Shown: positions 34,380-49,332 of the stretch, one piece after another | Numbering within the stretch: the first letter of the stretch is position 1 | Layout: the number at the start of each line of letters is the position of its first letter | NCBI GenBank assembly: GCA_903904735.1 | Contig: CAIVDM010000220.1 | Coordinates: 20,320-84,319, forward strand | DNA from: an uncultured delta proteobacterium | GTDB taxonomy: Bacteria; Bdellovibrionota_C; UBA2361; OMII01 | Length of the DNA: 64,000 bases | Direction of reading: 5' to 3' | Translations under genes and position numbers: made by a program | Notes under the pieces: model-generated | Database searches by the model: none | The model's input: the letters and a program-made list of their open reading frames with translations, nothing else | What the model was told of the DNA's origin: nothing

Positions 34380-34976
34380 TCACGATCCGTATCTTTCGGC
34401 CAGGAACGCCTTCAAACCACTGACTCCCAGATCCGTGAATCGCACGACCCCCTTGTCGTCAATGAAAACCGCGTAAGGCAATCGCTCTCCATAAAAAGCG
34501 AGAAAAGCCTCGTCTTGCACATCATTGCCTGAGAATACGTGCGTCATGCTCTCGAGGCCTTGGAGGCGTATCCGATTCTGGAGCTCTTCGTACGCTTCGT
34601 TCTTATCGACGCTGATGGCGTAGAACTCAACCTCCGGCCTATCCTTGTACACACGAGCTAAGGCCTCAAACTCTTGAATACCTGAGCGCGAATGCGGACA
34701 CCACGTCGCCCAAAAGAGAAGCGCCACATTTCTTCCAGCCCTACTGCTCAGCGCGATATGCTCTCCGCTAAGGAGCATCAAACGACTCTGGGGTGCCTGT
34801 CGCCCAATGAGCGATCGAGCTTGGTCAGAGAGAGACGCACAGCCCGGTAGAACAACGCAAAGAAGAAGCGCCGTGGCCAGCGCGTATGCCCTAAAAGTAG
34901 TGTCATAGCCGCGTGCTGTGACGCCTATAGCGTGAAATACTAAGAATAGAGTTCTCATCATCGCCCCTCTATACAC
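34380..34976 (-). CDS. TlpA/ResA-like thioredoxin-fold lipoprotein with CxxS site
   Basis: LLFWATWCPHS, FYAISVD, LPYAVFIDDKGVVR; LPG-C lipobox-like segment; start uncertain. Confidence 0.78.
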   Translation of the reverse strand: MYRGAMMRTLFLVFHAIGVTARGYDTTFRAYALATALLLCVVLPGCASLSDQARSLIGRQAPQSRLMLLSGEHIALSSRAGRNVALLFWATWCPHSRSGIQEFEALARVYKDRPEVEFYAISVDKNEAYEELQNRIRLQGLESMTHVFSGNDVQDEAFLAFYGERLPYAVFIDDKGVVRFTDLGVSGLKAFLAERYGS

Positions 34977-35051
34977 TAGGTGGGTTCACCACCTTAGAAC
35001 AAGAGCGTGGTGAACGTTGACATCACCTACTGTACAGAAGATTACCCTTTA

Positions 35052-37385
35052 TCAGGAACCCCTAATTCGGGGCATTTCACTCTCGTACCGAGCCTTCACC
35101 TCTGGATCCGACTCAGTCAGATACGCGTCGACGATCTGCTGCCAGCTTGACGACAGAGATACCCCTTTTACGTACGGTATAATGAGCAATCGGACACGTT
35201 TGTCCGGATGCTTGAGTAAATCCACGAGCAGCACGGGATTGATCGTATCGCCCAAGTTCTCAAGAATCGCTTTGACAAGTAGTGGGCTTCCGCGCTGTAG
35301 CATGAGCTTGGACAGTTGCGACGCGAACGGCGTTCCTCGAATCGACGAAAACGCGGTCTTCACTTCCTCCTGGCTCAGAGAATCAATGAGCCCGACCCCT
35401 CCGATGAATCTGCCGTAGTAGGCTCGGCCAACGTCAATGTTATTACTCACATATGAAAGCGCGTCATCAACCGAGACATTTCCCGTCGACTTAGTGCTCA
35501 ACGCGTTAAGGGAGCTCTCAATCACCTCTGAATTCGCGTTCATCAAAAGCGTGGCTAGTAAAACTTTTACCGACGCTGGGTCGTACCACTGACTATAGTT
35601 CTGCACGTCATCCATGTCAGGCTGCCGCCGCGCGCTCTTAAGGAGCGCTCCCATCGGGATGTTTTGCATATCGGAGGCGTGGGCGATGCTTTGAACAAAA
35701 AAACGATGATACCCCGGAGCTAATTGATTAATTCGATTCGATTTGACGAACTTCTGCAATTGCTCAGCGCGTTGTAAAATTAAGGTCTCTAGTAGCCACC
35801 ATGCGTCCTGGTCACTCATCGATGAGGCTCTCTGCATGATAGGCTCGAAAAAAAGCTCTCGGGCGCTCGGGATAGCGGCGATCAGCGCTAACGTACTAAC
35901 TGAGTCTATAGGGGCTCGCCCCACTCCGGTCTGCTTCCTCGCTCCTCTCATGAGTAGCTCTCGGAACAAGTTCGGATCAGATAGATCAAGTGTGAGAGCT
36001 CCAGCGAGCATATATGCGAGATCTGGGTCGACTGGCTCATAGGAAATTACCGCGTCTCGTCTTTTTTCTTTCGGCAGGTCCAATTCCATCACTTTCAGTA
36101 TGGCGGACATATCGGCCGGTTTCATGGATGACGGGGCTTTGACGAGATATCCTAGCACCTCGGCGGCAATGGAATATCCGCCGCTCTTTCCCTGTGAAAG
36201 TCGCTCTTGCCAGAGAGCGGAAAGTTCAGGTGTGGAGATGGTCTGTGTGGGTTCTGTGTTTGTCGATACGCGAGAACCCGCCTCAGGTTGCTCGGACGTA
36301 TCCTGCGAGGGGATGGCCGCCACGTCCTCTCCGTTAATTAAGTCTCGCCAGTCGCTTTTTAGAAGCCCCGCCCGCTCGGTCTCGGATATAGATGGAAAAA
36401 TCGGGACGAGCGACCACACGGCGAACAGCGCCAAACACAGCGACCCGCAAGCGCAGCTCATCACAAACAAGCGGGGGCGAGATAGTTGCCGGAGCCACGC
36501 CTGCCTCCTAATTTCGCCACGTGGGAGCGAAATGACCTGGGTATGTTCTTGTTTTTGGTCATGTAAGGTGTCGTGCCCGTCGTGGCTCTCGGCCGCGAGC
36601 CTTTTCTCGCAGGCGACATGAACGCTTATCGCGTCAAGCAGTTCGCTCGCGTTTTTATACCTTTCAGTGGGAGAGCGAGAGAGCACACCCGGCAAAACAG
36701 TCCTCAGCCACGTCGGCGCCTGAGGGTCTAGTGACCTCACGTAATCCGGCACATTTGAGGCCTGAATCGAATTGTCGGGGAAACCCGCGCCAAATAACCG
36801 AAGTCCTATTACCGCCAAAGCGTATACATCAGCCGCCTGGCTTGACTCAGTCGCGTCGAGAAGCTCAGGTGGGATAAGCACTCGGTATTCCGCCGATAGC
36901 TCTCTATGCGGCCTCCCGAAAGCGCCCCCCGCATAACCAACGAAATGCACATCCTCATCGGAATCGAGCATGAAGGAATCCCCGCACAGATTGCCACACA
37001 CGCGACCCGGAAGGTGGAGGGCCTCTATTTTAAGTATCGCCGCTAGGAATCTACGCGCTTTGACAAGCGGAGTTGGAGCGTCATAGTCCAGTCGCTTCGT
37101 TGCGAGGGATGACAGCGCGACGTAACCGATTCCATCCACGTCACATCCATAGCGTGATATCCGTTCGATTCCTCCCTCGCTTAAGGATAGTATGTGCTGA
37201 TGGAACGCTATCTTACCGTTCTCGGTGAGTGCCTCTCTGGTGAACCAAATCGCGCAGTGTAAATTGCCCGTCTTATCGTAGGCTCGGTATCCGTCCGCTA
37301 ACGAGTTGGCGCCAAACTTCCAATCGAGCGAGTAGTACTCACTGAGGTGCTCTAAGTATGTTGGCTCGCGCTTCCTGAAAAACAT
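35052..37385 (-). CDS. membrane-anchored Ser/Thr pseudokinase with large helical/HEAT-like C-terminal domain
   Basis: kinase C-lobe remnants IPPE, SQAADVYALAVI, PTERYKNASELL but HRD replaced by CGN and no DFG or Gly-loop; one TM near residues 305-330; C-terminal DLLKHPDKRVR HEAT-like motif. Confidence 0.65.
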   Translation of the reverse strand: MFFRKREPTYLEHLSEYYSLDWKFGANSLADGYRAYDKTGNLHCAIWFTREALTENGKIAFHQHILSLSEGGIERISRYGCDVDGIGYVALSSLATKRLDYDAPTPLVKARRFLAAILKIEALHLPGRVCGNLCGDSFMLDSDEDVHFVGYAGGAFGRPHRELSAEYRVLIPPELLDATESSQAADVYALAVIGLRLFGAGFPDNSIQASNVPDYVRSLDPQAPTWLRTVLPGVLSRSPTERYKNASELLDAISVHVACEKRLAAESHDGHDTLHDQKQEHTQVISLPRGEIRRQAWLRQLSRPRLFVMSCACGSLCLALFAVWSLVPIFPSISETERAGLLKSDWRDLINGEDVAAIPSQDTSEQPEAGSRVSTNTEPTQTISTPELSALWQERLSQGKSGGYSIAAEVLGYLVKAPSSMKPADMSAILKVMELDLPKEKRRDAVISYEPVDPDLAYMLAGALTLDLSDPNLFRELLMRGARKQTGVGRAPIDSVSTLALIAAIPSARELFFEPIMQRASSMSDQDAWWLLETLILQRAEQLQKFVKSNRINQLAPGYHRFFVQSIAHASDMQNIPMGALLKSARRQPDMDDVQNYSQWYDPASVKVLLATLLMNANSEVIESSLNALSTKSTGNVSVDDALSYVSNNIDVGRAYYGRFIGGVGLIDSLSQEEVKTAFSSIRGTPFASQLSKLMLQRGSPLLVKAILENLGDTINPVLLVDLLKHPDKRVRLLIIPYVKGVSLSSSWQQIVDAYLTESDPEVKARYESEMPRIRGS

Positions 37386-37402
37386 ACCCAGCTATCCTGC
37401 CG

Positions 37403-39490
37403 TCATCGCATCTTCCAAACTCCCACTTGCATCACTGGAAAAGCCGGATCAACTTCGTCAAGTGTTGTTACAAACAAGTTAAGTCCAGTTACTCGGACAA
37501 ATGAGATCACTTTTTCTTTCACGTCTTTGCTGCAGAGCAAGGCGATCGGCAATATGCCCCCGCTAAAGGCCGGCCGCAAAAGCGAATGTAATCCTTGAAA
37601 CAACCCATCATACTGCTCAGGCGGCATCGCCAGGGCAGTTGTCCAACGGTCAGTCTGTACATCCTCAAAATCGCGCTCTACCCTTGGTGAAAGTGTAATG
37701 ACCGGTAGGACAGGGATACTCCCAACAAATCTTCTGACTATTTGGCGTCGCCTGCTCGCGCGTATGAAATGCACCGCTTCGGCAACGGCCACCGGGATGT
37801 TGGAGTCGGTAGTGACGCCAGACGCGGCGCAATACTGCGCGAGCGCCTCAATAATCGAGCGAAAGTCCCGGATGCTGACACCCTGTCGCACTAACTCCTG
37901 AAGGATCTCCGTCAGCTTGGGAATTGAGACAAACTCCCTACCGAATCCATCTCCCATCAGTCCCGGATATTTCTTCTCGATCTGCCTCAGAAGTGAATGG
38001 ACATACGTCACGGAGATAAATTCCTCTGGGTGACGAATGCAGAACTGGCACATCCGGAGCGTGATGAAGTCAAAGAAGTCATAGTAACCGATACTGCCCG
38101 CCATTAACATTCTTGTGACGGCGGGCGAATCTTTCGTCCAAAAGACACGGTGCCCGGTGACGGGATGCTCCTCTTCGCGAATGACTTTCAATCCCAGCGC
38201 CTCAGCCTGTGAAGATGATATCTCGACCAGTATTGAGTTTGTTGGCACATCGCCAGCGAACAGCTCGACACCAAAATAACTCGCTTTGTAGGCATTTGAG
38301 CCTAGAAGGCTATCACTCTGGACTAGGAGCGGCGGTAAGGAAATCCCGATATCATCGAGCATTTTCTCACGAAAAGCCCTCCACTTGGCGGATAGCCCTT
38401 GTATCTCTTGCCGGTACAAACGATGTAAATCCTTTGAATCAAGCGACAGAACGATCCTCCCCTCGACCGAATCGGCTTCTTTGCTGCCAAGAAGACTCTC
38501 GCCCTGATCAGCGGAGAGGGTTCCGTCAAACGACGCTCGACCGTGACTGTGGCGAAGTGCCCACCATCCTATCGTCGTGACTCCTACGCTTGCCACTAGG
38601 AACGGAAGCGTGGGCAATCCAGGAACGAGCGCCATGCCGAATAGTATGAATGCCGTCACGAACAATGTCACAGGCTGATCAAATAGCTGAGCGCGGAGAT
38701 CCGCGCTCAGGCTAGACCGTTCAGACGATGACACTCTTGTGACGATGATTCCCGCGCAGATAGATGTAAGTAAACTCGGGATCTGGGTCACAAGCCCATC
38801 GCCCACGGTAAGGACTGTATAAGTCTGCACCGCGTCACTAAACCCCATACCTCCTAGTATGCCCATGTACATACCGCCGAAGATGTTCGCCGCGATTATA
38901 AAAAGACCCGCTATCGCGTCGCCCTGTACAAACTTCATCGCGCCATCCATCGAGCCATAAAGCTGCGATTCCCTGCGCAACTCATCACGCTTGAGACGAG
39001 CCTCGTTCGCTGATATGACCCCGGCGCGCGCGTCATTATCAATCATCATCTGTTTGCCGGGTAAGGCGTCCAAGGCGAATCGAGCCGCCACCTCTGAAAC
39101 TCGGCCCGCTCCGCTTGAGATCACGATAAAGTTGACGACCGTGACTATTGAGAAAATAATGAGTCCAACGACTACTTCTCCACGAATAAGAAACGTTCCA
39201 AACGCCTCAATCACTCGCCCCGCCTCACCTTGTGATAGGATGAGTCTGGCTGACGCCACGTTTAATCCTAGGCGAAATAGCGTGCTCAATAGCAGAATGG
39301 TTGGAAACGTGTACAGGGCGCCCGAATTAGCGACGTATAAACCAATTAAGAGAAGCAAGATGGCGAAGGCGATATTACACACCAACAAAATATCTAAGAC
39401 AGGAGTGGGAAGCGGAATTATCAGCATCGCCGCGATGGCGACGACAAAGAGCATCAATATCAGGTCTGAATACTTCACGCGCTGTGCCAT
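37403..39490 (-). CDS. sctV: type III secretion export-gate major subunit, FlhA/SctV (FHIPEP) family, SctV-like
   Basis: FPTILLLSTLFRLGLNVAS, RVSEVAARFALDALPGKQM, ESQLYGSMDGAMKFVQGDAIAG, LTVGDGLVTQIP, LVRQGVSIRD; short RLILSQGEAG loop typical of SctV rather than FlhA. Confidence 0.8.
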   Translation of the reverse strand: MAQRVKYSDLILMLFVVAIAAMLIIPLPTPVLDILLVCNIAFAILLLLIGLYVANSGALYTFPTILLLSTLFRLGLNVASARLILSQGEAGRVIEAFGTFLIRGEVVVGLIIFSIVTVVNFIVISSGAGRVSEVAARFALDALPGKQMMIDNDARAGVISANEARLKRDELRRESQLYGSMDGAMKFVQGDAIAGLFIIAANIFGGMYMGILGGMGFSDAVQTYTVLTVGDGLVTQIPSLLTSICAGIIVTRVSSSERSSLSADLRAQLFDQPVTLFVTAFILFGMALVPGLPTLPFLVASVGVTTIGWWALRHSHGRASFDGTLSADQGESLLGSKEADSVEGRIVLSLDSKDLHRLYRQEIQGLSAKWRAFREKMLDDIGISLPPLLVQSDSLLGSNAYKASYFGVELFAGDVPTNSILVEISSSQAEALGLKVIREEEHPVTGHRVFWTKDSPAVTRMLMAGSIGYYDFFDFITLRMCQFCIRHPEEFISVTYVHSLLRQIEKKYPGLMGDGFGREFVSIPKLTEILQELVRQGVSIRDFRSIIEALAQYCAASGVTTDSNIPVAVAEAVHFIRASRRRQIVRRFVGSIPVLPVITLSPRVERDFEDVQTDRWTTALAMPPEQYDGLFQGLHSLLRPAFSGGILPIALLCSKDVKEKVISFVRVTGLNLFVTTLDEVDPAFPVMQVGVWKMR

Positions 39491-39518
39491 ATTGGTCCGG
39501 TTGGGCCCCTCACCTATA

Positions 39519-40445
39519 TTAGGTAACCTTGAGCATTTGCGAGCCGATGCCTATGAATAGTAAGATCATGTAGGCCACAAAGACGAGCGCCACTGGGCCT
39601 GAGGCTTTAAGCTCAAGCTTCCGAATGCGCTCCTCTATCTTCGCTTCTCGTTGAGCGCCGACGGCGTCCGCGAGGTCCTGAAGCTGCTTCGATATCTCTC
39701 CTCCAAACTTCGCTACCTGAGACAGCGCTAGCAAGACATGCTTTAACTCGCTATGTCCAGACGCTCGACCAATCTCTTTGAGTGAATCCTCCAAGCTTAC
39801 ACCTGATTTCACATAGAACTGGGAATATTTAAGAAGTTCTGTTACCGCGTTGTGACTCTTTCGCTCATCCGCCATCTGCACAATGCGAGATAAACAAGGC
39901 CCTATGTCGAGAGAACTGCTAACTCCAATCGATATCTGCTCGATCACCAGTGGGAGATAATACGAAATGTCCTCATGCTGCTGAAGTATCCATTTATTGA
40001 TGATTCTGAGCGGTAGATACACACCGAGAATCACACCAAGAAAGCCTCCCAACATGATCATGTCAGAGGTTCCAATAAATGCTCCAAGTATGAGACCCAC
40101 GATACCACAAACTAGTGGGGCTAACATCTGCTTTTGGCGAAAGTCTCTGCGCTCTTCCTCGGACAATCGCCCGGCCATAAACAGCTTTTCATCGGTCGTG
40201 GGCTCCTTCTTTTTCCGCCCAGTCTTTTGAAAGGCACTGTCTATCTCATGCTCCTCCCCCTCATCCTCCTCCGCCTCGAGATCAAGGTCCTCCTCATTTG
40301 ACTCAGCGTACATGAGCTCGCGACCAGCACGACGAAGATTACCTCTTCCTAATCTGCGTGTTTGAGTCGCTAATGCGTACCATCCCGCCGCTACGGCGAA
40401 GAGTAGAGCAGCGACGACTATGGTGATTAAGAGTGTCCTGTCCAC
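39519..40445 (-). CDS. tadC: Tad inner-membrane platform protein TadC (T2SS-F fold)
   Basis: LPLVIEQISIGVSSSL...GGEISKQLQDLAD...EAKIEERIRKL..K...PVALVF; follows tadB. Confidence 0.82.
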   Translation of the reverse strand: MDRTLLITIVVAALLFAVAAGWYALATQTRRLGRGNLRRAGRELMYAESNEEDLDLEAEEDEGEEHEIDSAFQKTGRKKKEPTTDEKLFMAGRLSEEERRDFRQKQMLAPLVCGIVGLILGAFIGTSDMIMLGGFLGVILGVYLPLRIINKWILQQHEDISYYLPLVIEQISIGVSSSLDIGPCLSRIVQMADERKSHNAVTELLKYSQFYVKSGVSLEDSLKEIGRASGHSELKHVLLALSQVAKFGGEISKQLQDLADAVGAQREAKIEERIRKLELKASGPVALVFVAYMILLFIGIGSQMLKVT

Positions 40446-40449
40446 TCGC

Positions 40450-41442
40450 CTATACCTTAAAGTTTGTCATTTTATTCATCCACAGAACTCCAAGTATCAT
40501 CAAAGCGACTGATGCCTGGGCGTACCCGTTAAGACTTGGGTTCTGCCATGTTCCGAGAACGATATCCGGGGTGGAAGCGAACATATACGCCTGGAGTCCG
40601 GCGATCAGAAGGAGGATTACCCAAATCGAGCCTCGGTGCATACCCACCGCCCCAGAGGCCGCCATTTTGAAGTTTTGTCGCTTACGAACCTGCCTGGCGA
40701 GTCTATCGAGAGTGTCTGAAAGAGTTCCTCCGACTCTTCGGCTCAAAATCAAAGCCTGGACGAAAAGTTCTATTTCTGGGTGGTTAATGTCCTCCCCGAA
40801 CGAGCCTATAGAGCGATCCTCGGACACACCAACCCTAAGACGTTCGAGCATTAACCCCACTTCTTGCCGTACAAGCGAGGTTTCCTCTAGCCCTTCCGCG
40901 CCAGCCTGAAGCGCTTGAATAGTATTAAGACCTGTCTTCAACATACCTACCACAGAGAGTAGGAACTGTGGAAAATCGACGTCGAATTTGCGCGCCCGCG
41001 CCTCAATTCTGCGGTTAATCACGAAGTTCACAACTAAAGGTCCGACAAAGAGTGACATAACCTGCAGAATCTCTTTGCAGTACATATGCGCCACTGAGAA
41101 GGCGGCAAGACTGATTACCACTTGCGCCACGCTACAGAAATATACGGGATACTGACCGAGCTCCGCGTATCTAAGTCGCGTCGCGAGAGATAGTCCGCGT
41201 GACTGCTTCACCTCGATTTCCGGCTTCTGACTTCCGCGGCGCCCTTTCGCTCCGACAAGCGACTCTCCGTCACTGAGCGCTGAGTCGTCTAGATTGCGAT
41301 ACTCCTGGGATATCGATCGCAGTGATATACTAGAGGAAGAACCTCCGGCCGACGCTCCAATAGCGCCAGACCATAACAGGAACGCTCCCGCGACCAAAAG
41401 CAGCAGAAGCAAAATAAGAGTGATCTGGAAACCAGATATCAT
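40450..41442 (-). CDS. tadB: Tad inner-membrane platform protein TadB
   Basis: FPQFLLSVVGMLKTGLNTIQAL, RRVGGTLSDTLDRLARQVRKR; follows the ATPase. Confidence 0.85.
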   Translation of the reverse strand: MISGFQITLILLLLLLVAGAFLLWSGAIGASAGGSSSSISLRSISQEYRNLDDSALSDGESLVGAKGRRGSQKPEIEVKQSRGLSLATRLRYAELGQYPVYFCSVAQVVISLAAFSVAHMYCKEILQVMSLFVGPLVVNFVINRRIEARARKFDVDFPQFLLSVVGMLKTGLNTIQALQAGAEGLEETSLVRQEVGLMLERLRVGVSEDRSIGSFGEDINHPEIELFVQALILSRRVGGTLSDTLDRLARQVRKRQNFKMAASGAVGMHRGSIWVILLLIAGLQAYMFASTPDIVLGTWQNPSLNGYAQASVALMILGVLWMNKMTNFKV

Positions 41443-41447
41443 AACGC

Positions 41448-43098: not shown

Positions 43099-43126
43099 GG
43101 GTCGGCACAAAACTTTCAGAGTATTA
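43099..43126 (-). promoter_or_regulatory. possible sigma28-type internal promoter for cpaF-tadB-tadC-sctV
   Basis: minus strand TAAT-N16-GCCGACCC within the 286-nt AT-rich gap. Confidence 0.3.
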
Positions 43127-43305
43127 GGCGCAGTGGCTTTATTTATGTACGGGCCACACGAACAAAGAGGAAGCGGCGTTAGGGATGGGATGGCTTTAGT
43201 ATAACTATCTGATTATATGCGGCCAATTTTACCAAAAGGCGTTTTCTTTTAATTGTCACTTTGTGATTTCGAAGAGAAACATCACAACTATCGTTTGGAA
43301 ACGAC

Positions 43306-44157
43306 TTATTCTGGGAGTAGAGCTGCGCCTACAACGCGATAGCGTCGACCGTCGATTAGTACCCAACCCTGGTCAGACGGTCCCTTGGCGGCTACATTGT
43401 CAGAGAGACCAATGATGGAGTCCAGCGGCACGGTTTCGGTCTCGATTATATCACCGGTATCTTCATCTCCACGTAGCAGAAGTCGTAGCGTTCCCTGGCC
43501 AGAGGCCAGTTTTAATCTTTTCTGGTCTTCAATTGAGACTTCTAACGTGACCGTCGACGCGTCTCCTTCTACCATTTGCGACTCGCCACCGAATTCCGAA
43601 GAAACGCTCGTTCCGCTTGATAGCACCCTCACGTTCTGGAGAATGATGGTGCCTGTCGCCTTTGGACCTGTATCGGCTACAAGCAATACATCGACACGAA
43701 CACCTGCCCGCGCCCAACCTTCATTCGTTGTCTCTCGGTCGAGCTTTACGGTTATAGCTCTGTATCCTTGACGAATCTTCGGGACAACGCTGTTTATAGG
43801 TGACTTCGAGGTAATGTGATCAGTGACCAATGGCTGCCCAGCCGGAATAAACGACTTAGCGTATACGCCTCGAAGCTGCTCAAAATCGGAGATGAGGTTG
43901 ACACCCGCCAGAGTGGTCTTTTCCCGCGACTCCTTACGGAAAAGGGTGGGTTTCAACTCCGCGCCCACATCGATGTTCTCTACGGGGACTAGAATATCAA
44001 CGACTCCTAATTCCGCCACCTGGGTTACGACAGGCTTTTGCTCTGGATTTTCTATAAATAACGCGGCCAACAAGAGGCCAGACGCTAACAGCAGGCCAAA
44101 ACCAACGATTATCCTGAACCGTGGGGCAGGGGCTGATTTTTTGTAACGAGTAGTCAC
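43306..44157 (-). CDS. cpaB: Flp pilus assembly protein CpaB/RcpC
   Basis: N-terminal TM, SAF-like domain, GYRAITVKLD, G..RAGVRVDVLL, ILQNVRVL, TVTLEVS...KLASGQGTLRLLLR. Confidence 0.88.
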   Translation of the reverse strand: MTTRYKKSAPAPRFRIIVGFGLLLASGLLLAALFIENPEQKPVVTQVAELGVVDILVPVENIDVGAELKPTLFRKESREKTTLAGVNLISDFEQLRGVYAKSFIPAGQPLVTDHITSKSPINSVVPKIRQGYRAITVKLDRETTNEGWARAGVRVDVLLVADTGPKATGTIILQNVRVLSSGTSVSSEFGGESQMVEGDASTVTLEVSIEDQKRLKLASGQGTLRLLLRGDEDTGDIIETETVPLDSIIGLSDNVAAKGPSDQGWVLIDGRRYRVVGAALLPE

Positions 44158-44181
44158 GGGTATGTCACTGAATTAAACGAC

Positions 44182-44213
44182 AAAGTCCCACGAGGCTGGA
44201 AGCCGCGCGGGAC
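44182..44213 (-). terminator. stem-loop downstream of the flp pilin gene (attenuator or mRNA stabiliser)
   Basis: minus strand GTCCCGCGCGGCT-TCC-AGCCTCGTGGGAC followed by TTTG; 13-bp stem with one mismatch and one G-U pair. Confidence 0.6.
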
Positions 44214-44237
44214 CCTGGACTTGTAGAGCAGACCGAA

Positions 44238-44435
44238 CTATCCGATCTGTCCCGCGACAGTGCTGAACTGTTTAGAAATGTTACTTCCAAGTACTCTCAT
44301 AGCGGCAATTCCGGCCACCGCGACTAATGCGACGAGTAGCGCGTATTCCACCAGCGACGCTCCCTTCTGGGACTTCTTCTCGAGATGGGTTTCTTTTTTA
44401 TCTAACGACACTTCAATTGACATAGACTCCTCCAA
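44238..44435 (-). CDS. flp: Flp family type IVb/IVc pilin
   Basis: KSQKG|ASLVEYALLVALVAVAGIAAM, class III signal with Flp EY motif; GGAGGAG RBS suggests a start at the downstream MSIEV. Confidence 0.92.
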   Translation of the reverse strand: MEESMSIEVSLDKKETHLEKKSQKGASLVEYALLVALVAVAGIAAMRVLGSNISKQFSTVAGQIG

Positions 44436-44575
44436 GCTGACTCACATGAACCAATGCTGATACATGCCCACTAGTTTTAAGTAGAGCCTTTACCAGGCGA
44501 AGCCCTCTGGGGCACCAGTAATAAAGACCCACTCTGTATGCTATTCCCCGACTCTCTAAACCGTCAACTGTGAAT

Positions 44576-45841
44576 TTAACGCATTTCACTCTCAGAACGT
44601 CGACGAAACAGACGTTGTAGCCAACCACGGGCGGAGCTCGCGTCCTCGTCGTAGGAGATTCCCACACCCTTTACCCCGAGTTGCTCCACAAGACCCAGCT
44701 TACGCGCAATATCCGCGATTACATTCCTAAGCTCTTTACTTCCACTACTATATAAGGTGCTGCCCGTGCCAGGCCACTCAGCTGCCTTCGGGTCAAAAGG
44801 AATCACTGGAAGACTCCATGCCGCTTCACTCAGCTGGTGAACATTGTCGAGCTCTGTGGATATCTGTTTGAAGTTCACCGGCTCATCACTCGAGGGATTA
44901 ATGATAAATCGCAGACGGTCGCTTCCGCCCAGGAGAGGCTTCACTGAGGTCAACAACAAATCAACCGCCGTTAGGCCAAGCTCCGAGTCATCGGTGACCA
45001 TTATTACTAGGTCCGCGACTCGCAGAAGACCTCCCACCGCGGGCCCCATACGACCGGCGGTATCAACGATCACCACGTCAAATAGCACTCTAGACAATTC
45101 AATTATTCGTTGCGAAATCTCCATTCCATCGGCATGGCACACAAGGTCCATTGATTCAGCGAATCCCGCCGGCGGCGTTAGCACCGAGACGTCCCCCACA
45201 ATAGGTATGAGCGCGTCACGAAAAGTCTCTCGATTTATGTCGCGACTTCCATTAACCCATCCACTGATAATTTTCGCCTCTGGTCCACTCGCCGCGAGAG
45301 CGCGACTAAGATCCTTTGTTTCAACGTCTAAGTCCCACAACATGGTCCTTCGATTCGCGGCGCTGCACGCTTCTCCCAGGGCGGCGGTCACTGAAGTTCC
45401 TCCCACTCCACCTTTGGCGTGTAGAACCACAACTATCCGTCCTTCATATGTCCGGCCATCCTTTCGAAAGTCCGCGTGAATCGCGACCAACTCTTGTAGA
45501 AGATCGAGAGAACCCGCGCTCTCAGGAAATACTTTTCTCACCCCTACGGAGTGAGCCGATCGGAAGGCTCCGCCGCCATACTCCTTATCAGTGACGAACA
45601 TGACGATCTGGATCCAAGCCGCTTCTGTGCGGATCTGACGAGCCAGCGATATCGCCTGGTCCGAAATACCTGACCCAAAAATAACGACATCGGCCTCTGA
45701 AAGACGGTCAACGAACTCACGATCGTTAACGAGGCGTACCTTCAGGTCCAACATCTCCTTGTCGCCCTTTGTGAAGCCCTCGATCCGTTTCGCGCACAGC
45801 GCCTGGGTTTCAGTTGAGTTATCGACGATGAGAACTCTCAT
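44576..45841 (-). CDS. cpaE: CpaE/TadZ-like localisation ATPase (receiver-like N-domain plus MinD/ParA-like domain)
   Basis: MRVLIVDN receiver-like start; degenerate Walker A HAKGGVGGTS; LWDLD; VVIVDT; start overlaps the kinase stop. Confidence 0.8.
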   Translation of the reverse strand: MRVLIVDNSTETQALCAKRIEGFTKGDKEMLDLKVRLVNDREFVDRLSEADVVIFGSGISDQAISLARQIRTEAAWIQIVMFVTDKEYGGGAFRSAHSVGVRKVFPESAGSLDLLQELVAIHADFRKDGRTYEGRIVVVLHAKGGVGGTSVTAALGEACSAANRRTMLWDLDVETKDLSRALAASGPEAKIISGWVNGSRDINRETFRDALIPIVGDVSVLTPPAGFAESMDLVCHADGMEISQRIIELSRVLFDVVIVDTAGRMGPAVGGLLRVADLVIMVTDDSELGLTAVDLLLTSVKPLLGGSDRLRFIINPSSDEPVNFKQISTELDNVHQLSEAAWSLPVIPFDPKAAEWPGTGSTLYSSGSKELRNVIADIARKLGLVEQLGVKGVGISYDEDASSARGWLQRLFRRRSESEMR

Positions 45842-47319
45842 AATTGACCACCGAATAGACTTAATTTATCTAAAAACGACGGGCTGAATATCTTTAAAAA
45901 GACAAAACCAAACGCGACTCCGAAGCAAACCGCGATAAGAAGCGTTAGCATATCGAGCACCCGCAGACGACGATTACTAGCTTCTAACAAATCTACGGGA
46001 AACTCGGTAGTTGTGTGCCCTCTCGTATGCCGGTCTCTAAATCCACTTCGCTCGTTATATCCCTCAGGCCCTCGAATTGGTGTTTGTGCCTGTGCCGCCT
46101 TTGACGACTCGGCGGCATCGGATCCAGAAAGCGCGTATTCAACATACGAAGCGCTCAAAACTTCTGTATCACTGTTGATTGTCTGCCTCGGCTTGCCGGC
46201 AACATTTATCGCCGGGGATGATTCCGAACCCCTCGACGCGGCTGAATGGGAATCGGAGGTCGACCAATCAGTGGTGTCCGAACGACCTCGAGCTTTACTA
46301 ACATCGATGGATCCGTCCGAGCTGAGCAATTGAGTCTCATAGCCCATCTTTGCCGTTGTAGAATTGGTCGCAGGATCCATGAGTGAAGGACCGACGTATC
46401 GCTGCCCGGGTTGGAGACCTCCCGTTGGCATATATAAACCACTTCCAGTCTGAGACTGGATTCCGGCGTTTGCGGCCGCGCGCTGAAGGTCGGCGAATAT
46501 CTCCATCGCCGATTGATATCGCGCCTCTGGATCTCGCTCTAGCGCTTTTAAGATGATCGAGTCTATCTCTGGCGAGCACTCTTTTCGGAGCTTACTAGGA
46601 GGCTCTGGGTCTACTTGCAAACGCTTGCTTATAGACTCATAAGGACTATCTCCCTTGAATGGCGGCTCCCCAGTTAACATCTCAAATGCCAGAATGCCCA
46701 AGGCATAGATGTCAGACCGCCAGTCCACTTGAGACCTCAGCATATACTCCGGGGCAACGTATTCAATCGTTCCTACCACGCCCCCATGCTCCGTTAACTT
46801 AGGCCCGTTACGATTACGAGCTATGCCGAAATCAGCGATCTTAATGTTGCCCTCGTTAGTGAGAAGGATATTTTCAGGCTTTAAGTCTCGATGAACAATT
46901 CCCGCGTCGTGAATGGCCTGCACCCCCGCGGTCATCTGACTTAGCAGTTTGATAAACTCAGCGATGCTCATGAGCTGGGATCGGCTCATTCTATCCGCTA
47001 AGTCACCCCCTCCCACAAACTCCATCGTGTAAGCGACGAGATCCCCATCCGTAATATACTCGTATGCGCGCACTACATTGGGGTGAGAGACTCCATACGA
47101 GGCGAGCACCTCATTTTTGAACCTTGCCGCCGCTACCTTGTCAGCCGCTACCTCATGAAAGAGCACTTTCGCCGCGACCATCTGCCCCTGGAGCTCTCGG
47201 TGCCTGCACGCGTACACCATTCCCATAGACCCGGCGCCGAGGCACTTAACGACCTCATACTTTCCGCCGATCACGGTACCTGGTTGTAAGCTTATGAGAT
47301 GCTGGTCCGACATAATCAC
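45838..47319 (-). CDS. Hanks-type Ser/Thr protein kinase, C-terminally membrane-anchored
   Basis: LGAGSMGMVY, AAKVL, HRDLKPEN, DFG, GT.EYVAPE, SDIYALG all intact; C-terminal TM. Confidence 0.93.
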   Translation of the reverse strand: MIMSDQHLISLQPGTVIGGKYEVVKCLGAGSMGMVYACRHRELQGQMVAAKVLFHEVAADKVAAARFKNEVLASYGVSHPNVVRAYEYITDGDLVAYTMEFVGGGDLADRMSRSQLMSIAEFIKLLSQMTAGVQAIHDAGIVHRDLKPENILLTNEGNIKIADFGIARNRNGPKLTEHGGVVGTIEYVAPEYMLRSQVDWRSDIYALGILAFEMLTGEPPFKGDSPYESISKRLQVDPEPPSKLRKECSPEIDSIILKALERDPEARYQSAMEIFADLQRAAANAGIQSQTGSGLYMPTGGLQPGQRYVGPSLMDPATNSTTAKMGYETQLLSSDGSIDVSKARGRSDTTDWSTSDSHSAASRGSESSPAINVAGKPRQTINSDTEVLSASYVEYALSGSDAAESSKAAQAQTPIRGPEGYNERSGFRDRHTRGHTTTEFPVDLLEASNRRLRVLDMLTLLIAVCFGVAFGFVFLKIFSPSFLDKLSLFGGQL

Positions 47320-47327
47320 CTAGCTTA

Positions 47328-48347
47328 TCACTCCTCGCCCATTTCTATAGAGACCAAACAAACGTGGAACTTTTTCTCTCCAAAGAAAACAACATCCCCG
47401 TGCCTCGCGACTCCTTTCTCTCCTGACAAAGACTCATCCTCCCCGGAATCTATGTGAATTATGCGCGTACCGAATTCAGAGAGCTGATCTAAGATGTAAA
47501 TAGGTTCCCCACTGGAGATCCTCATAATGGCGTGCATCGGCGACACTGAACTATCCTCTATCACGAGACAAGGCGCCGCGCCCACACTTTCAGAGGTAAC
47601 TATCATTCTGCCCTCCCGGAGTTCCACGAACATCCCCCTCGGGTCCGCGTCAAACGACACCAAAAACCCAACGAGCGCGCCCCCGTTCATGCCCGACGGC
47701 GGCAAACGATGGGGACGTTCCTTGCGATGACGTGCGCTTAAAACAGATGCCCCCGCCTCGGACTTCTCTTTCATGTGGAGCGCAGATCCATCGGCGTCTG
47801 AGGCCGATATCTCGCTGGATTGTTCGGTGATATCGAGACTCACCGTTCCTGAGTCGATTACTCCTGGAAGGCCCGAGGATTCATCTGTTTCCACAGGAGT
47901 CGACTCCTCTGATGATGCATCAAAGTGAGCACTATCGACCGACGGGTCGATACCATCATTCACGACCGAATGACTCGAAATAGCATCCGCCATCTCCCCC
48001 ATAGATTGTGCGTCGTCAACGAAGTTCAACGGGTCGACTCGATTTTCGAGCGGCTCCGCGTCGACTTCTGACCCACGTGGCTCCTCGGATCCCATCAGCT
48101 CGTCCTCAGCGAAAATATCAAAGAGCGCGTGGTCAAGCGCGCTGTGATCGGAACTCCCCTGCTCAGGTGTCTCCCCCACCACGCCAAGTAGGTCAGCTAC
48201 CTGCTCATGCGTCGGAGAGCCCTCCGACGCGGACCGAAGAGCCCCAAGCTGGTCGGCTCCCATAACGATAGTTTTATTTCGCGCTCGATGAGCGCTCAAG
48301 ACGATTCGAGGATTTGATTTACCGCTATTTTCCATACGTATCTCCAA
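47328..48347 (-). CDS. FHA-domain protein (degenerate) with long acidic disordered N-region
   Basis: C-terminal LVGFLVSFD...ELREGR...VSPMHA...DQLSEFGT...HGDVVFFG fits the FHA fold. Confidence 0.7.
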   Translation of the reverse strand: MEIRMENSGKSNPRIVLSAHRARNKTIVMGADQLGALRSASEGSPTHEQVADLLGVVGETPEQGSSDHSALDHALFDIFAEDELMGSEEPRGSEVDAEPLENRVDPLNFVDDAQSMGEMADAISSHSVVNDGIDPSVDSAHFDASSEESTPVETDESSGLPGVIDSGTVSLDITEQSSEISASDADGSALHMKEKSEAGASVLSARHRKERPHRLPPSGMNGGALVGFLVSFDADPRGMFVELREGRMIVTSESVGAAPCLVIEDSSVSPMHAIMRISSGEPIYILDQLSEFGTRIIHIDSGEDESLSGEKGVARHGDVVFFGEKKFHVCLVSIEMGEE

Positions 48348-49332
48348 GTATCGCGAAAAACAGAAAGCCCATTACCGTAAGCAGCATGCCCACGATGCCG
48401 ACAACTGCCACCAATCCCAAATGGGAGGAAAGCGGCGCCCGCCTCCTCTTTTTTCGAGATGCGTTGGGTTTAAGTACTTTGGGAGTAGCCGCGTCGTCAG
48501 TCTCCTTGGCGGGAGGAGCCTGCTCATCGCAAAGCTCTCCTGCGAGGGGGATAACAACAGCCGTTATATTATCGTATCCACCACGCTCACGAGCCAACTC
48601 AATCAACTTAGTGCACGCTTCGAGAGGAGAGTACGCCCCTACTATCGCCGCCATGTCAGGCTCGGATACAAGGCTATAGAGACCATCCGAGCACAGCAGG
48701 AGCGCCCCCTGCTGATTCTCCTGAACTGATGAGGCCACCCAAAATCGATAGATATCGATCCCAAAACCCACCGCCGAACCGAGACACCGAGTTAGAATAT
48801 GAGACTGAGGATGCATCAAAGCGTCCTCTGGTCGAACATGTCCCAGGTCCACTAACTGTTGTACAAACGTGTGATCGGACGTCAACTGTCGAGCGGCGCC
48901 ACCAGCGATATAATAGGCTCTTGAATCCCCCACCGAAGCGATGACAACCTGGTTGCCACTACAAAGCGCCGCGACAACTGTAGTTCCCATAGACGAGAAC
49001 TTTGGGTTTTGTCGGCGTAACGCTATTACATCATGGGCGCTCTGAAGCGCCTCGCGCAGCATTTCCGTGGGGTCACTTCCAGAAGCTTTCTCGAAGTGAG
49101 AACGAACCGTATCAACCGAGAGTTGCGCAGCGGCCTCACCACCAGGCTCGCCACCCATTCCATCAAACACGAAGTAGCCCATTCCAAGGGCGGCCTTAAG
49201 CACGAGAAACCGATCCTCGTTTTTCGGTCGCTCACAACCAGTGTCCGTGAGCGCGGCGGGCACTCCGGCAATGTCGAAGCTCCCCGTTTTACGAGCTGGT
49301 TTATCCTTGTTCTGCTCCTGGTCCAGAATCAT
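48325..49332 (-). CDS. PP2C/PPM-family Ser/Thr phosphatase with C-terminal TM
   Basis: TDTG..R..NEDR, VFDGMGG, MGTT, VGDSRAY, LT.DH, LCSDGL, GGYDNIT. Confidence 0.93.
   Translation of the reverse strand: MILDQEQNKDKPARKTGSFDIAGVPAALTDTGCERPKNEDRFLVLKAALGMGYFVFDGMGGEPGGEAAAQLSVDTVRSHFEKASGSDPTEMLREALQSAHDVIALRRQNPKFSSMGTTVVAALCSGNQVVIASVGDSRAYYIAGGAARQLTSDHTFVQQLVDLGHVRPEDALMHPQSHILTRCLGSAVGFGIDIYRFWVASSVQENQQGALLLCSDGLYSLVSEPDMAAIVGAYSPLEACTKLIELARERGGYDNITAVVIPLAGELCDEQAPPAKETDDAATPKVLKPNASRKKRRRAPLSSHLGLVAVVGIVGMLLTVMGFLFFAILGDTYGK

What the first reader, a model, noticed from the sequence alone, without database searches (positions are those of the whole stretch)
34380..49332. Candidate hybrid machine: Tad pilus motor + lone SctV-type T3SS export gate + phospho-Thr switch in one locus
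Seen: 12 consecutive minus-strand genes PP2C, FHA, kinase, cpaE, flp, cpaB, cpaF, tadB, tadC, sctV-like, pseudokinase, TlpA-like. Gaps from cpaF to the pseudokinase are only 5, 4, 28 and 17 nt, and PP2C/FHA and kinase/cpaE overlap, so co-transcription and translational coupling are likely. Known: Tad and T3SS are normally separate loci. In Myxococcus xanthus a Tad-like Kil system containing FHA proteins works with a needle-less T3SS in contact-dependent prey killing, but the two are encoded apart. Inference: here the export gate is wired into the Tad operon, suggesting a kinase-gated Tad/T3SS-like contact or predation apparatus.
Basis: partly seen in the sequence, partly recalled or inferred. 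Interest (0 to 1): 0.9.

Follow-up and report, generated by a model that had tools for sequence, protein, structure and literature searches.

The report
Tad pilus operon with T3SS gate

Summary
Twelve co-directional minus-strand genes lie at 34380-49332: PP2C, FHA, Ser/Thr kinase, CpaE, Flp, CpaB, CpaF, TadB, TadC, a full-length FHIPEP/SctV paralog, a 777-aa pseudokinase and a TlpA-like redoxin.

The tadC-sctV junction is not an assembly join. It is present in 63 of 64 genomes examined across the class; the 64th is cut by a contig end. An independent 14-kb metagenome contig also spans it.

"Lone" SctV is wrong. This genome also encodes, on contig C16, an SctV-less needle-less T3SS-like set: two FHA proteins, SctJ, an SctO homologue, SctQ, SctR, SctS, a likely SctT and a truncated SctU. 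An SctL/SctN-like pair lies on C48.

In six genomes of other orders, SctV, the pseudokinase and that T3SS-like set are contiguous. In five of them the Tad genes are upstream on the same strand, forming a super-operon of about 26 kb in the four genomes followed from PP2C past SctR. The window is therefore the Tad half, plus the gate, of a split ancestral Tad/T3SS* super-operon.

The closest known system is the Myxococcus xanthus Kil pilus with its needle-less T3SS*, which are encoded apart. Physical coupling and a role in predation are inferred, not shown. I rate it a new variant of a known kind, interest 0.7.

The parts
48325..49332 (-). PP2C-type Ser/Thr phosphatase, 335 aa, with a C-terminal hydrophobic tail at residues 307-325
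   Evidence: Pfam PP2C_2 E 5e-15 and PP2C E 2e-14. Hydropathy scan. Syntenic in 15 of 20 family representatives and 6 of 6 outgroup loci.
47328..48347 (-). FHA-domain protein, 339 aa. The N-terminal part is acidic and low-complexity; the FHA domain spans about residues 225-339.
   Evidence: Pfam FHA E 0.0068, below the cut-off. Only residues about 220-339 are conserved in relatives, and they cross-hit the FHA of the C16 and G024 YscD-like proteins. Sequence shown.
45838..47319 (-). Hanks-type Ser/Thr kinase, 493 aa, with intact motifs (VAAK, HRDLKPEN, DFG, APE). One hydrophobic segment at residues 457-475 leaves about 18 residues beyond it, so there is no sensor domain.
   Evidence: Pfam Pkinase E 8e-57. 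Motifs are visible in the hhalign template line. Hydropathy scan.
44576..45841 (-). CpaE/TadZ-like ParA/MinD-family ATPase, 421 aa
   Evidence: Pfam AAA_31 E 1e-8 and CbiA E 4e-7. NCBIfam gives only sub-threshold ParA/Ssd/MinD hits. 50-78% identity in relatives.
44238..44435 (-). Flp-type prepilin, 65 aa, with a G/ASLVEY processing motif
   Evidence: Pfam Flp_Fap E 3.8e-11, 43 bits against a cut-off of 32. Sequence shown.
43306..44157 (-). CpaB/RcpC pilus-assembly protein, 283 aa, with an N-terminal hydrophobic anchor
   Evidence: Pfam RcpC E 5.4e-20 plus SAF. Hydropathy scan.
41448..43019 (-). CpaF/TadA secretion ATPase, 523 aa. Pfam detects no FHA domain in it.
   Evidence: Pfam T2SSE E 1e-31. 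Best NCBIfam hit is the TadA-family ATPase at 213 bits, below the cut-off. 64-83% identity in relatives.
40450..41442 (-). TadB platform protein, 330 aa
   Evidence: Pfam T2SSF E 3e-11. Alignment A2 of 28 sequences.
39519..40445 (-). TadC platform protein, 308 aa
   Evidence: Pfam T2SSF E 6e-12. Alignment A3 of 28 sequences.
37403..39490 (-). SctV/FHIPEP export-gate paralog, 695 aa, full length (transmembrane domain plus cytoplasmic domain), non-flagellar type
   Evidence: Pfam FHIPEP E 4.5e-172. NCBIfam hrcV 565 bits and FlhA 519 bits, both below their equivalog cut-offs. Best PDB match is 7alw SctV at 365 bits over residues 8-666. In the tree it forms one clade with the supercluster SctVs (SH-aLRT 96) and is separate from flagellar FlhA.
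35052..37385 (-). P777, a bitopic receptor-like pseudokinase. It has a degenerate Hanks kinase domain (about residues 9-265), a conserved transmembrane-like helix (306-324), a disordered linker (326-384) and an all-alpha HEAT-like repeat domain (385-777) that is predicted to be periplasmic.
   Evidence: No Pfam hit. AF2 mean pLDDT 82.5. Foldseek matches PknA/PknB with TM-score 0.65-0.68, normalised to the target. hhalign against the operon kinase gives probability 99% with the Gly-loop, VAIK Lys, HRD and DFG motifs lost. A hydrophobic segment is present in 24 of 24 orthologs.
34380..34976 (-). TlpA-like thioredoxin-fold protein, 198 aa, with an N-terminal hydrophobic segment. It is specific to the window's order and is not part of the ancestral supercluster.
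   Evidence: Pfam AhpC-TSA E 7e-12 and Redoxin. It lies downstream of P777 in 12 of 20 order representatives and in 0 of 6 outgroup loci.

Best explanation
The window encodes one half of a two-part envelope apparatus that descends from a single ancestral super-operon.

What is shown:
- A Flp/Tad-type pilus module (CpaE, Flp, CpaB, CpaF, TadB, TadC) is preceded by a phospho-threonine module (PP2C, FHA protein, Hanks kinase).
- It is followed, within the tight cpaF-tadB-tadC sub-operon, by a non-flagellar SctV export gate and a membrane-spanning pseudokinase (P777).
- The remaining parts of the matching needle-less T3SS-like system lie on contig C16 of the same genome: two FHA proteins, SctJ, an SctO homologue, SctQ, SctR, SctS, a likely SctT, and an SctU reduced to its membrane part. 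An SctL/SctN-like pair lies on C48.
- In other orders of the class all of these genes follow P777 directly, on one strand and with gaps of a few bases.
- The SctVs of both arrangements form one clade.

What is inferred:
- The Tad pilus and the T3SS-like export apparatus are made together and act together at the envelope in a contact-dependent process, as shown genetically and cytologically for the M. xanthus Kil pilus and T3SS*.
- SctV gates export of cytoplasmic cargo through SctRST.
- With no secretin and no needle protein detected, the Tad pilus or its platform would provide the outward route or the targeting.
- P777 senses a periplasmic or contact signal through its alpha-solenoid domain and allosterically controls the tail-anchored kinase.
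- Phospho-threonines are read by the three FHA proteins to recruit or fire the T3SS-like part.
- PP2C resets the switch.
For: The junction is conserved:
- TadB-TadC-SctV in 30 of 30 genus-level loci, with P777 in 28 of 30.
- 20 of 20 representatives, 19 of them from other families of the order, with P777 in 18 of 20 and the full PP2C-to-SctV order in 15 of 20.
- 11 of 12 outgroup loci, the 12th being cut by a contig end.
- 2 further outgroup genomes, G022 and G007.

The super-operon is contiguous in relatives:
- G024 contig C164 carries TadB-TadC-SctV-P886-FHA2x-YscD-like FHA protein-SctJ-SctO-SctQ-SctR, with gaps of 6-25 nt.
- The same order, from PP2C past SctR to the TPR protein or the fetch end, is found in G011, G005, G022 and G007. 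G023 has SctV through SctR. G018 and G006 are cut earlier.

The own genome has the matching parts:
- The C16 cluster has no SctV.
- It has a second FliI/YscN-family ATPase with an SctL-like neighbour.

Phylogeny and support for the assembly:
- Tad-linked SctVs (28) and supercluster SctVs (10) form one clade, SH-aLRT 96. It is sister to the C158-type (3), and flagellar FlhA (13) lies apart at 100.
- An independent lake metagenome contig of 14,385 nt spans tadB through the start of P777 with 25 differences. A second run bridges the junction.

P777 architecture.

Literature (passages read):
- Kil recruits T3SS*, the two co-localise, and a larger complex is hypothesised (PMC12075869).
- FHA proteins are enriched in the kil clusters (PMC8460266).
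Against: - No experiment or expression data of weight. Only three short RNA-library contigs lie on tadC and sctV, and DNA carry-over cannot be excluded.
- In the window's own order the T3SS-like genes lie at a separate locus, so their co-regulation with the Tad operon is unknown.
- The promoter and terminator scan gave no more sites than shuffled sequence: 11 promoter-like sites against 12.0 +/- 3.0, and 18 terminator-like sites against 14.1 +/- 4.0. The operon structure therefore rests on spacing alone.
- The C16-type cluster is not constant. In G091 and G082 SctQ is followed directly by the TPR gene, with R-S-T-U missing, and a separate SctR-S-T-U operon exists elsewhere. So the partner set of this SctV is variable.
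- A second non-flagellar SctV (C158 cluster) could use the same SctRSTU.
- No Tad secretin was found. There are only 2 Secretin hits in the genome: one PilQ-like, and one about 3 kb from a PilC-like gene.
- The 'SctD-like' protein has its FHA domain at the C-terminus and no hydrophobic segment at the threshold used, so it is not a canonical SctD.
- Homology to the M. xanthus Kil and T3SS* proteins was not tested. None of the best 120 of 299 homologues of the FHA2x protein carried a Myxococcus name.
- L066 and L067 lack the PP2C-FHA-kinase module next to CpaE.
Confidence: 0.6

Rival explanations
1. Co-regulation only. The Tad pilus and the T3SS-like apparatus are separate machines that are needed at the same time, for example adhesion followed by secretion. 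Their genes were once fused into one transcription unit, and sctV with P777 stayed behind by operon inertia when the cluster split. There is no physical or mechanistic coupling.
For: The split in the window's order fell two genes after the Tad/T3SS boundary. That would be expected if breakpoints are arbitrary. The T3SS-like gene sets are modular and get reshuffled: R-S-T-U is deleted in G091 and G082, and a separate SctRSTU operon exists.
Against: After the split, sctV and P777 stayed within tens of bases of tadC in 50 of 50 loci of the order, while SctV diverged to about 41% identity. In M. xanthus the T3SS* fails to localise without Kil, and three of the four pilus tips need T3SS* to kill (PMC12075869 passages). 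That points to more than shared timing.
Confidence: 0.28
2. A true orphan gate. This SctV works directly on the TadB/TadC platform or CpaF motor, for example as an ion-conducting or cargo-docking ring, and does so independently of any SctRST core.
For: In the window's order sctV stays with tadC, while the SctRSTU genes vary among relatives. They are present inside the C16-type cluster here and deleted from it in G091 and G082. In six genomes checked, the number of non-flagellar FHIPEP genes (2) exceeds the number of non-flagellar FliP genes (1). These are the own genome and G082, G091, G079, G083 and G086.
Against: The ancestral arrangement places SctV at the head of a full SctJ-O-Q-R-S-T-U set. 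Every genome checked keeps at least one non-flagellar SctR. The transmembrane domain of SctV keeps the family's invariant positions (alignment A4; Pfam full length), which fits an ordinary gate function.
Confidence: 0.1
3. An artefact or a flagellar gene. The adjacency is a mis-assembly, or the gene is simply a second flagellar flhA.
For: The MAG has 255 contigs and 6% estimated contamination.
Against: The junction is present in 63 of 64 genomes examined and in independent metagenome contigs. The flagellar FlhA sits on C177 next to FlhB and FliP, scores 838 bits against 574 on the FHIPEP model, and is only about 33% identical to the window protein. The two lie on opposite sides of a branch with support 100.
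Confidence: 0.01

Closest known systems
Myxococcus xanthus Kil (Tad-like) pilus together with its 'needleless' T3SS* (mxan_2434-2464)
   Same: Both pair a Tad-type pilus that has FHA-domain proteins in its cluster with a T3SS-like basal body and sorting platform. No secretin is encoded within the T3SS-like cluster here, and no needle or translocon protein was detected in it. In M. xanthus the two co-localise at prey contacts, Kil recruits T3SS*, and a joint complex has been hypothesised (PMC12075869 and PMC8460266, passages read; review PMC12428579).
   Different: - In M. xanthus the two systems are encoded at separate loci. Here sctV sits inside the Tad operon, and in sister orders the whole T3SS-like set is in the same super-operon.
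- CpaF has no FHA domain detected by Pfam here, whereas KilF is FHA-fused (PMC8460266).
- This locus also carries a kinase, a PP2C and a receptor-like pseudokinase. No secretin or prepilin peptidase is encoded within the cluster.
- The lineage is different: MAGs titled Bdellovibrionota, Pseudomonadota or Deltaproteobacteria.
- Sequence orthology to the Kil and T3SS* proteins was not tested.
- The 2025 review states that Kil/T3SS* co-occurrence appears restricted to Cystobacterinae.
Canonical Tad/Flp (type IVc) pilus loci, such as the Caulobacter cpa and Aggregatibacter tad loci (recalled)
   Same: Flp prepilin with the G/xxxxEY motif, CpaB/RcpC, CpaE/TadZ, CpaF/TadA, and the TadB plus TadC pair, in the usual order.
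   Different: No CpaC/RcpA secretin, CpaA/TadV peptidase, TadD or TadE/F/G was seen in the cluster. The phospho-threonine module, SctV and the pseudokinase are additions.
Injectisome SctV (YscV/LcrD, SsaV) and flagellar FlhA
   Same: Full-length FHIPEP architecture. Best solved relative is 7alw SctV at 365 bits, ahead of FlhA at 319, 290 and 266 bits.
   Different: It scores below the NCBIfam equivalog cut-offs for both HrcV/SctV and FlhA. It is not flanked by SctU, SctW or chaperone genes, but by tadC and a pseudokinase. The partner SctU lacks its cytoplasmic domain, matching Bac_export_2 profile positions 3-236 of 335 in G011.
Threonine-phosphorylation pathway of the Pseudomonas aeruginosa H1-T6SS (PpkA kinase, PppA PP2C phosphatase, Fha1). 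Gene names are recalled; the pathway is cited in the discussion of PMC8460266.
   Same: A Hanks kinase, a PP2C phosphatase and FHA protein(s) are encoded with a contact-dependent envelope machine. PpkA (5hnv) is among the fold matches of P777 (rank 49).
   Different: The machine controlled here is Tad/T3SS-like, not a T6SS. The receptor-like protein with the extracytoplasmic domain is a pseudokinase, while the active kinase is only tail-anchored.

Membership tests
Tad/Flp (type IVc) pilus system | Flp-family prepilin with a G/xxxxEY processing site | tested here: met
   Pfam Flp_Fap at 43 bits, above the cut-off of 32. The sequence reads ...KG/ASLVEYALL....
Tad/Flp (type IVc) pilus system | TadA/CpaF ATPase, separate TadB and TadC platform proteins, TadZ/CpaE and RcpC/CpaB | tested here: met
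   Pfam T2SSE, two single-domain T2SSF proteins, AAA_31/CbiA and RcpC. The NCBIfam TadA-family hit is the best one but is below its cut-off.
Tad/Flp (type IVc) pilus system | Dedicated secretin (RcpA/CpaC) and prepilin peptidase (TadV/CpaA) | tested here: not met
   Neither is in the cluster. Genome-wide there are only 2 Secretin hits, one PilQ-like on C15 and one on C35 about 3 kb from a PilC-like gene. There is 1 Peptidase_A24 hit, on C201. The MAG is 92.8% complete, so absence is not proven.
SctV/FlhA (FHIPEP) export gate | Full-length FHIPEP domain: N-terminal polytopic membrane domain plus C-terminal cytoplasmic domain | tested here: met
   Pfam PF00771 E 4.5e-172, profile positions 2-654 of 657. 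PDB 7alw aligned over residues 8-666. Hydrophobic segments in residues 31-292.
SctV/FlhA (FHIPEP) export gate | Scores as an equivalog of injectisome SctV or flagellar FlhA | tested here: not met
   TIGR01399 hrcV 565 bits against a cut-off of 692. TIGR01398 FlhA 519 bits against 772.
SctV/FlhA (FHIPEP) export gate | Nonameric ring and function with an SctRST core | not testable with these tools
   SctR, SctS and a likely SctT are encoded on C16. Assembly cannot be tested here.
Needle-less T3SS* (as described in M. xanthus) | Export apparatus and sorting-platform genes present (SctJ, Q, R, S, T, U, V, N, L, O) | tested here: met
   - C16: SctJ, SctQ, SctR, SctS (weak, below the cut-off), a 178-aa polytopic protein (SctT inferred), and a weak SctU N-terminal part.
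- SctO shown in G024 (FliJ at 42.7 bits, above the cut-off of 28.4).
- SctV in the window.
- SctL/SctN-like pair on C48.
- A canonical SctD was not found: the YscD-like FHA protein lacks a detected transmembrane segment.
Needle-less T3SS* (as described in M. xanthus) | No secretin, needle or translocon genes | tested here: inconclusive
   No secretin-sized ORF or Secretin hit is in the C16 cluster or the G011 supercluster. The small ORFs between SctJ and SctQ gave no needle-family hit. Short needle proteins are easily missed.
Needle-less T3SS* (as described in M. xanthus) | Orthology to the mxan_2434-2464 proteins | not tested
The FHA2x homologue list carried no Myxococcus name among the 120 shown of 299.
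Kil system (M. xanthus Tad-like killing pilus) | ATPase fused to an N-terminal FHA domain; many FHA proteins in the cluster | tested here: inconclusive
   No FHA domain in CpaF by Pfam. FHA proteins are present: one in the window, and two in the C16 or supercluster part.
Kil system (M. xanthus Tad-like killing pilus) | [quoted passage not shown] | not testable with these tools
   The lineage is uncultured and known only from MAGs.
Hanks-type protein kinase (for P777) | Kinase fold | tested here: met
   Foldseek matches PknA/PknB at E 3e-7, TM-score 0.65-0.68 normalised to the target. hhalign against the operon kinase gives probability 99%, E 5e-18.
Hanks-type protein kinase (for P777) | Catalytic motifs: Gly-rich loop, VAIK Lys, HRD...N, DFG | tested here: not met
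   The aligned positions read GANSLADGY, CAIW, CGNLCGDS and VHFVG in the window protein. The family consensus likewise lacks the Lys and the DFG motif. P777 is therefore a pseudokinase.

The most novel reading that the evidence does not exclude
A single composite trans-envelope nanomachine in which the Tad pilus takes the place of the missing T3SS needle and secretin. Cargo selected by the SctV/SctRST gate would be loaded onto, or released along, the Flp pilus at a contact site. A receptor pseudokinase, kinase, PP2C and FHA circuit would trigger the whole assembly. The machine would have been invented once as one operon at the root of this class, and it would be the genetic 'Rosetta stone' for the Kil/T3SS* partnership seen in myxobacteria.
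Probability: 0.3. Interest if true: 0.9.

Novelty: new variant of a known kind. Interest (0 to 1): 0.7.

Why it matters
A Tad-like pilus working with a needle-less T3SS is so far known experimentally from one organism, where the two are encoded apart. Whether they form one complex is stated as open in PMC12075869 and PMC12428579 (passages read). The 2025 review says that their co-occurrence appears restricted to one myxobacterial suborder.

Here the two gene sets are physically fused into one super-operon in several orders of a different, uncultured freshwater lineage. The gate gene stays welded to tadC after the operon split. This is independent evolutionary evidence that the two machines are one functional unit.

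It also points to specific candidates for the coupling and its control: SctV, the bitopic pseudokinase P777, and the FHA proteins. And it gives a compact gene set that could be studied heterologously or by comparative genomics.

Tried and rejected
- The promoter and terminator scan of 33500-50500 gave no more sites than shuffles. It was not used as evidence for or against co-transcription. Two promoter-like sites do fall in the cpaE-flp and cpaB-cpaF gaps.
- Complex prediction with TadB, TadC and SctV residues 1-340 (alignments A2-A4) returned 'no answer', score 0.00. This is neither for nor against binding.
- Outside the window's order, the best hits to the window SctV were flagellar FlhA next to FlhB and FliP in 13 of 14 loci fetched. 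The orthologues only became visible with the G024 SctV as query. At the threshold used there (1e-110) a few flagellar genes also pass, so the tally of 81 of 124 genomes is not used as a count of the feature.
- The idea that five same-genus genomes lack the C16-type system was rejected. They keep FHA2x and SctQ, and in the two inspected (G091, G082) also the YscD-like protein, SctJ and the SctO homologue, having lost only the R-S-T-U segment.
- NCBIfam gave P777 only a weak MAD6 kinase hit (E 8e-9). It was not used beyond 'kinase-like'.
- The homologue search with FHA2x brought no named Myxococcus protein among the 120 listed of 299. The link to M. xanthus therefore remains an analogy.
- RNA-library contigs (runs X19 and X20) cover only 344 nt and 184 nt of tadC and 155 nt of sctV. 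That is too little to claim transcription or an operon.
- Literature searches for the adjacency found no paper describing a tadC-sctV or Tad/T3SS super-operon.

Full report
**1. The observation**

The window is G000:C220:20320-84319 of a 3.4-Mb MAG with 255 contigs, 92.8% completeness and 6% contamination. Twelve minus-strand ORFs occupy 34380-49332.

Pfam identifies them as follows:
- PP2C
- a weak FHA domain
- a Hanks kinase
- a CpaE-like ParA/MinD ATPase
- an Flp prepilin
- CpaB/RcpC
- CpaF (T2SSE)
- TadB and TadC (one T2SSF domain each)
- a full-length FHIPEP protein (E 4.5e-172)
- a 777-aa protein without a Pfam hit
- an AhpC/Redoxin-fold protein

PP2C/FHA and kinase/cpaE overlap. Larger gaps lie before flp (140 nt), cpaB (80 nt) and cpaF (286 nt). 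So sctV sits in the tightest block together with the motor and platform genes. The Flp protein carries the G/ASLVEY processing motif.

**2. Not an artefact, and conserved**

- The search for related loci brought five public MAG contigs titled Bdellovibrionota, Proteobacteria, Pseudomonadota or 'Bacterium'. All five are syntenic.
- A search of the 124 species genomes of the GTDB phylum (one class) found a high-scoring orthologue through the window's order.
- tblastn on the fetched loci showed TadB-TadC-SctV in 30 of 30 genus-level loci. The 777-aa protein (P777) followed in 28 of 30; one locus gave no hit and one was cut by a contig end.
- TadB-TadC-SctV was also present in 20 of 20 loci taken from one second-genus genome of the window's family and from other families of the order, with SctV identity falling to 41%. 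P777 followed in 18 of 20.
- The full PP2C-to-SctV order was present in 15 of 20. Three were cut by contig ends, and two small genomes (L066, L067) lacked the phospho-module at that place.
- The stretch 37000-41500 is held by at least 18 DNA runs from 12 or more freshwater or lake studies.
- In one independent run a single 14,385-nt contig spans the stretch with 25 differences. In another, a 1,043-nt contig bridges the tadC/sctV junction.

**3. SctV is not alone in the genome**

The genome has three FHIPEP genes:
- The copy on C177 scores 838 bits and lies beside FlhB and FliP. It is the flagellar FlhA.
- A 620-aa copy on C158 lies in a cluster of sigma factor, SctJ-like, SctQ-like, FHIPEP, TPR protein and response regulator.
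- The third is the window copy.

Contig C16 carries a minus-strand cluster:
- a protein with two FHA domains (FHA2x)
- a protein with a C-terminal YscD-type FHA domain
- SctJ
- a 110-aa protein
- SctQ
- SctR
- SctS
- a 178-aa polytopic protein (SctT inferred)
- a 198-aa protein with a weak match to the membrane part of SctU
- a TPR protein

The C16 cluster has no SctV, no ATPase and no secretin.

A FliI/YscN-family ATPase with an SctL-like neighbour lies on C48, in addition to a FliH-FliI pair on C78.

Only two secretins were found. One is PilQ-like. The other lies about 3 kb from a PilC-like gene. One prepilin peptidase was found.

**4. The key result**

G024 belongs to another order of the class. 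Its contig C164, seen whole, carries on one strand TadB, TadC, SctV (739 aa), a P777 homologue (886 aa), FHA2x, the YscD-like FHA protein, SctJ, a 158-aa FliJ/YscO-family protein (SctO), SctQ and SctR. Gaps are 6-25 nt, or the genes overlap, wherever adjacent ORFs were called; about 250 nt between SctJ and SctO hold no ORF of 80 aa or more.

I then used the G024 SctV as a query and fetched wider regions. The same co-directional order runs from PP2C past SctR, about 26 kb, in G011, G005, G022 and G007. In G011 the run continues with SctS, a 294-aa protein, and an SctU reduced to its membrane part (Bac_export_2 positions 3-236 of 335). G023 shows SctV through SctR. G018 and G006 are cut earlier by the end of the fetched region or the contig.

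Six more outgroup genomes show TadC-SctV-P777 in short loci. Of the 12 loci in that call, 11 have TadC and one is cut. Altogether the tadC-sctV junction was verified in 63 of 64 genomes examined.

A maximum-likelihood tree of 54 FHIPEP proteins was built with IQ-TREE (quick search, LG+G4). It puts the 28 Tad-linked SctVs of the order and the 10 supercluster SctVs in one clade (SH-aLRT 96). That clade is sister to the three C158-type proteins, with 13 flagellar FlhAs across a branch of support 100.

The simplest history is one ancestral Tad/T3SS-like super-operon. It was split in the window's order between P777 and FHA2x, leaving the gate and the pseudokinase with the Tad genes. The TlpA-like gene came later: it is present in 12 of 20 order loci and 0 of 6 outgroup loci.

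**5. The system is modular**

Five same-genus genomes (G082, G091, G079, G083, G086) have three FHIPEP genes but only two FliP genes, and none of the C16 type. They still keep FHA2x and SctQ. In the two inspected, G091 and G082, the YscD-like protein, SctJ and the SctO homologue are also present, and SctQ is followed directly by the TPR gene.

They also carry a separate operon elsewhere: a weak SctI-like protein, a 348-aa protein, then SctR, SctS, SctT and SctU. The window's own genome lacks this operon by tblastn.

So one non-flagellar SctRSTU set may serve two non-flagellar SctV/SctJ/SctQ sets. The exact partner of the window SctV is therefore not fixed. This is the main uncertainty for any detailed mechanism.

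**6. P777**

- An alignment of 24 orthologues gave an AlphaFold2 model with mean pLDDT 82.5. It has a kinase-like domain, a long helix, a disordered stretch (326-384) and an all-alpha repeat domain (385-777).
- Foldseek's best matches are PknA and PknB, with TM-score 0.65-0.68 normalised to the target.
- hhalign against the operon's own kinase gives probability 99%. The glycine loop, the VAIK lysine (W here), HRD (CGN in the window protein, CGD in the consensus) and DFG are all lost.
- A single hydrophobic segment is present at the same place in 24 of 24 orthologues and is often preceded by basic residues. P777 is therefore predicted to be bitopic, with the repeat domain outside the cytoplasm.
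- The active kinase and the PP2C each have only a C-terminal hydrophobic tail.

This suggests, by inference only, that P777 is the sensor that controls the kinase. The FHA proteins would then read the phosphorylation state. The window holds one FHA protein, and the T3SS-like part holds two.

**7. Comparison with what is known**

In M. xanthus the Kil pilus kills on contact and the needle-less T3SS* is needed for lysis. Kil recruits T3SS*, three of the four pilus tips need T3SS*, and the authors propose a joint complex (PMC12075869, passages). FHA proteins are over-represented in the kil clusters, and KilF carries an FHA domain (PMC8460266, passages).

A 2025 review says that the association 'remains to be elucidated' and that co-occurrence 'appears restricted to the Cystobacterinae' (PMC12428579, passages).

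My literature searches found no description of a Tad/T3SS super-operon or of a tadC-sctV adjacency. Supplements were closed and Thiery et al. 2022 was not available.

The present locus works like that pair on the genomic evidence. Membership is not shown: orthology to the M. xanthus proteins was not tested, CpaF has no FHA domain, and no Tad secretin was found.

**8. Verdict**

- The genomic statements are solid, at about 0.9.
- That the two machines act as one unit is likely, at about 0.6.
- A physically composite machine has a probability of about 0.3.
- A predatory or contact-killing role rests on analogy only.
- Weak or negative points: the promoter scan was uninformative, the RNA evidence is minimal, and the complex prediction gave no answer (listed under Tried and rejected).
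- Novelty: a new variant of a known kind.
- Interest: 0.7.

Noticed in passing
G000 contig C158 (locus L017 3178-10186, minus strand): A second non-flagellar T3SS-like cluster: sigma-70 factor, SctJ-like (341 aa), a 127-aa protein, SctQ-like (286 aa), a 117-aa protein, a 620-aa FHIPEP with a short C-terminal domain, a TPR protein, a 119-aa protein and a receiver-HisKA protein. It is conserved in G082 and G091. It has no SctRSTU of its own.
   Followed up: partly
G091:C78 (locus L079 3858-7649, minus strand); also G079, G082, G083, G086: A stand-alone operon: a 119-aa protein with a weak SctI hit, a 348-aa protein, then SctR, SctS, SctT and SctU, next to a GAF/PAS histidine kinase. tblastn did not find it in the window's own genome.
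   Followed up: partly
L135 (G091:C76) and L136 (G082:C5): In these relatives the C16-type cluster runs FHA2x, YscD-like FHA protein, SctJ, SctO homologue, SctQ and then directly the TPR gene. The SctR-S-T-U segment has been lost from inside the cluster.
   Followed up: yes
L114 9224-10009 (G011) and L016 6736-7332 (own C16): The SctU homologue of this system is reduced to its membrane domain: 261 aa matching Bac_export_2 positions 3-236 of 335 in G011, and 198 aa with a weak match in the own genome. The autocleaving cytoplasmic switch domain appears to be absent. A separate 88-aa FlhB C-terminal fragment lies on C191.
   Followed up: partly
G000 contig C48 (locus L125 855-2817, plus strand): An SctL-like protein (224 aa) and a FliI/YscN-family ATPase (451 aa; TIGR01026 at 443 bits, above the cut-off of 379.5) lie convergent with a FlgE hook gene. 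They are additional to a FliH-FliI pair on C78. Which pair is flagellar was not resolved.
   Followed up: partly
G000 contigs C173, C55, C196: Three further pairs of TadB/TadC-like T2SSF genes. The pairs on C55 and C196 give the same or nearly the same Pfam scores (42.4 bits in both; 38.9 and 38.1 bits), so they may be strain copies or contamination in a MAG with 6% contamination.
   Followed up: no
Loci L066 (G036) and L067 (G043): Two small genomes of the order (about 1.8-1.9 Mb) keep CpaE through P777 but have no PP2C-FHA-kinase module next to CpaE.
   Followed up: no
Relatives G034, G065, G069, G011, G075, G099, G044, G043 (match tables): Single in-frame stop codons (TAA, TAG or TGA) are reported inside or at the edge of some SctV matches. 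They may be sequencing errors, pseudogenes or matches that run past the gene end. They were not inspected.
   Followed up: no
window 40245-40278: A short stretch inside tadC attracts many unrelated metagenome contigs (depth 89 in run X15, with loose ends on both sides in all four runs). It looks like a low-complexity or widely shared motif rather than a property of this organism.
   Followed up: no
window 32150-34294 (+) and 50024-51854 (+): The cluster is bounded by ordinary housekeeping-type genes on the other strand: an S9 prolyl-oligopeptidase-family hydrolase on one side, and a cobalamin adenosyltransferase plus a GT87 glycosyltransferase on the other.
   Followed up: no
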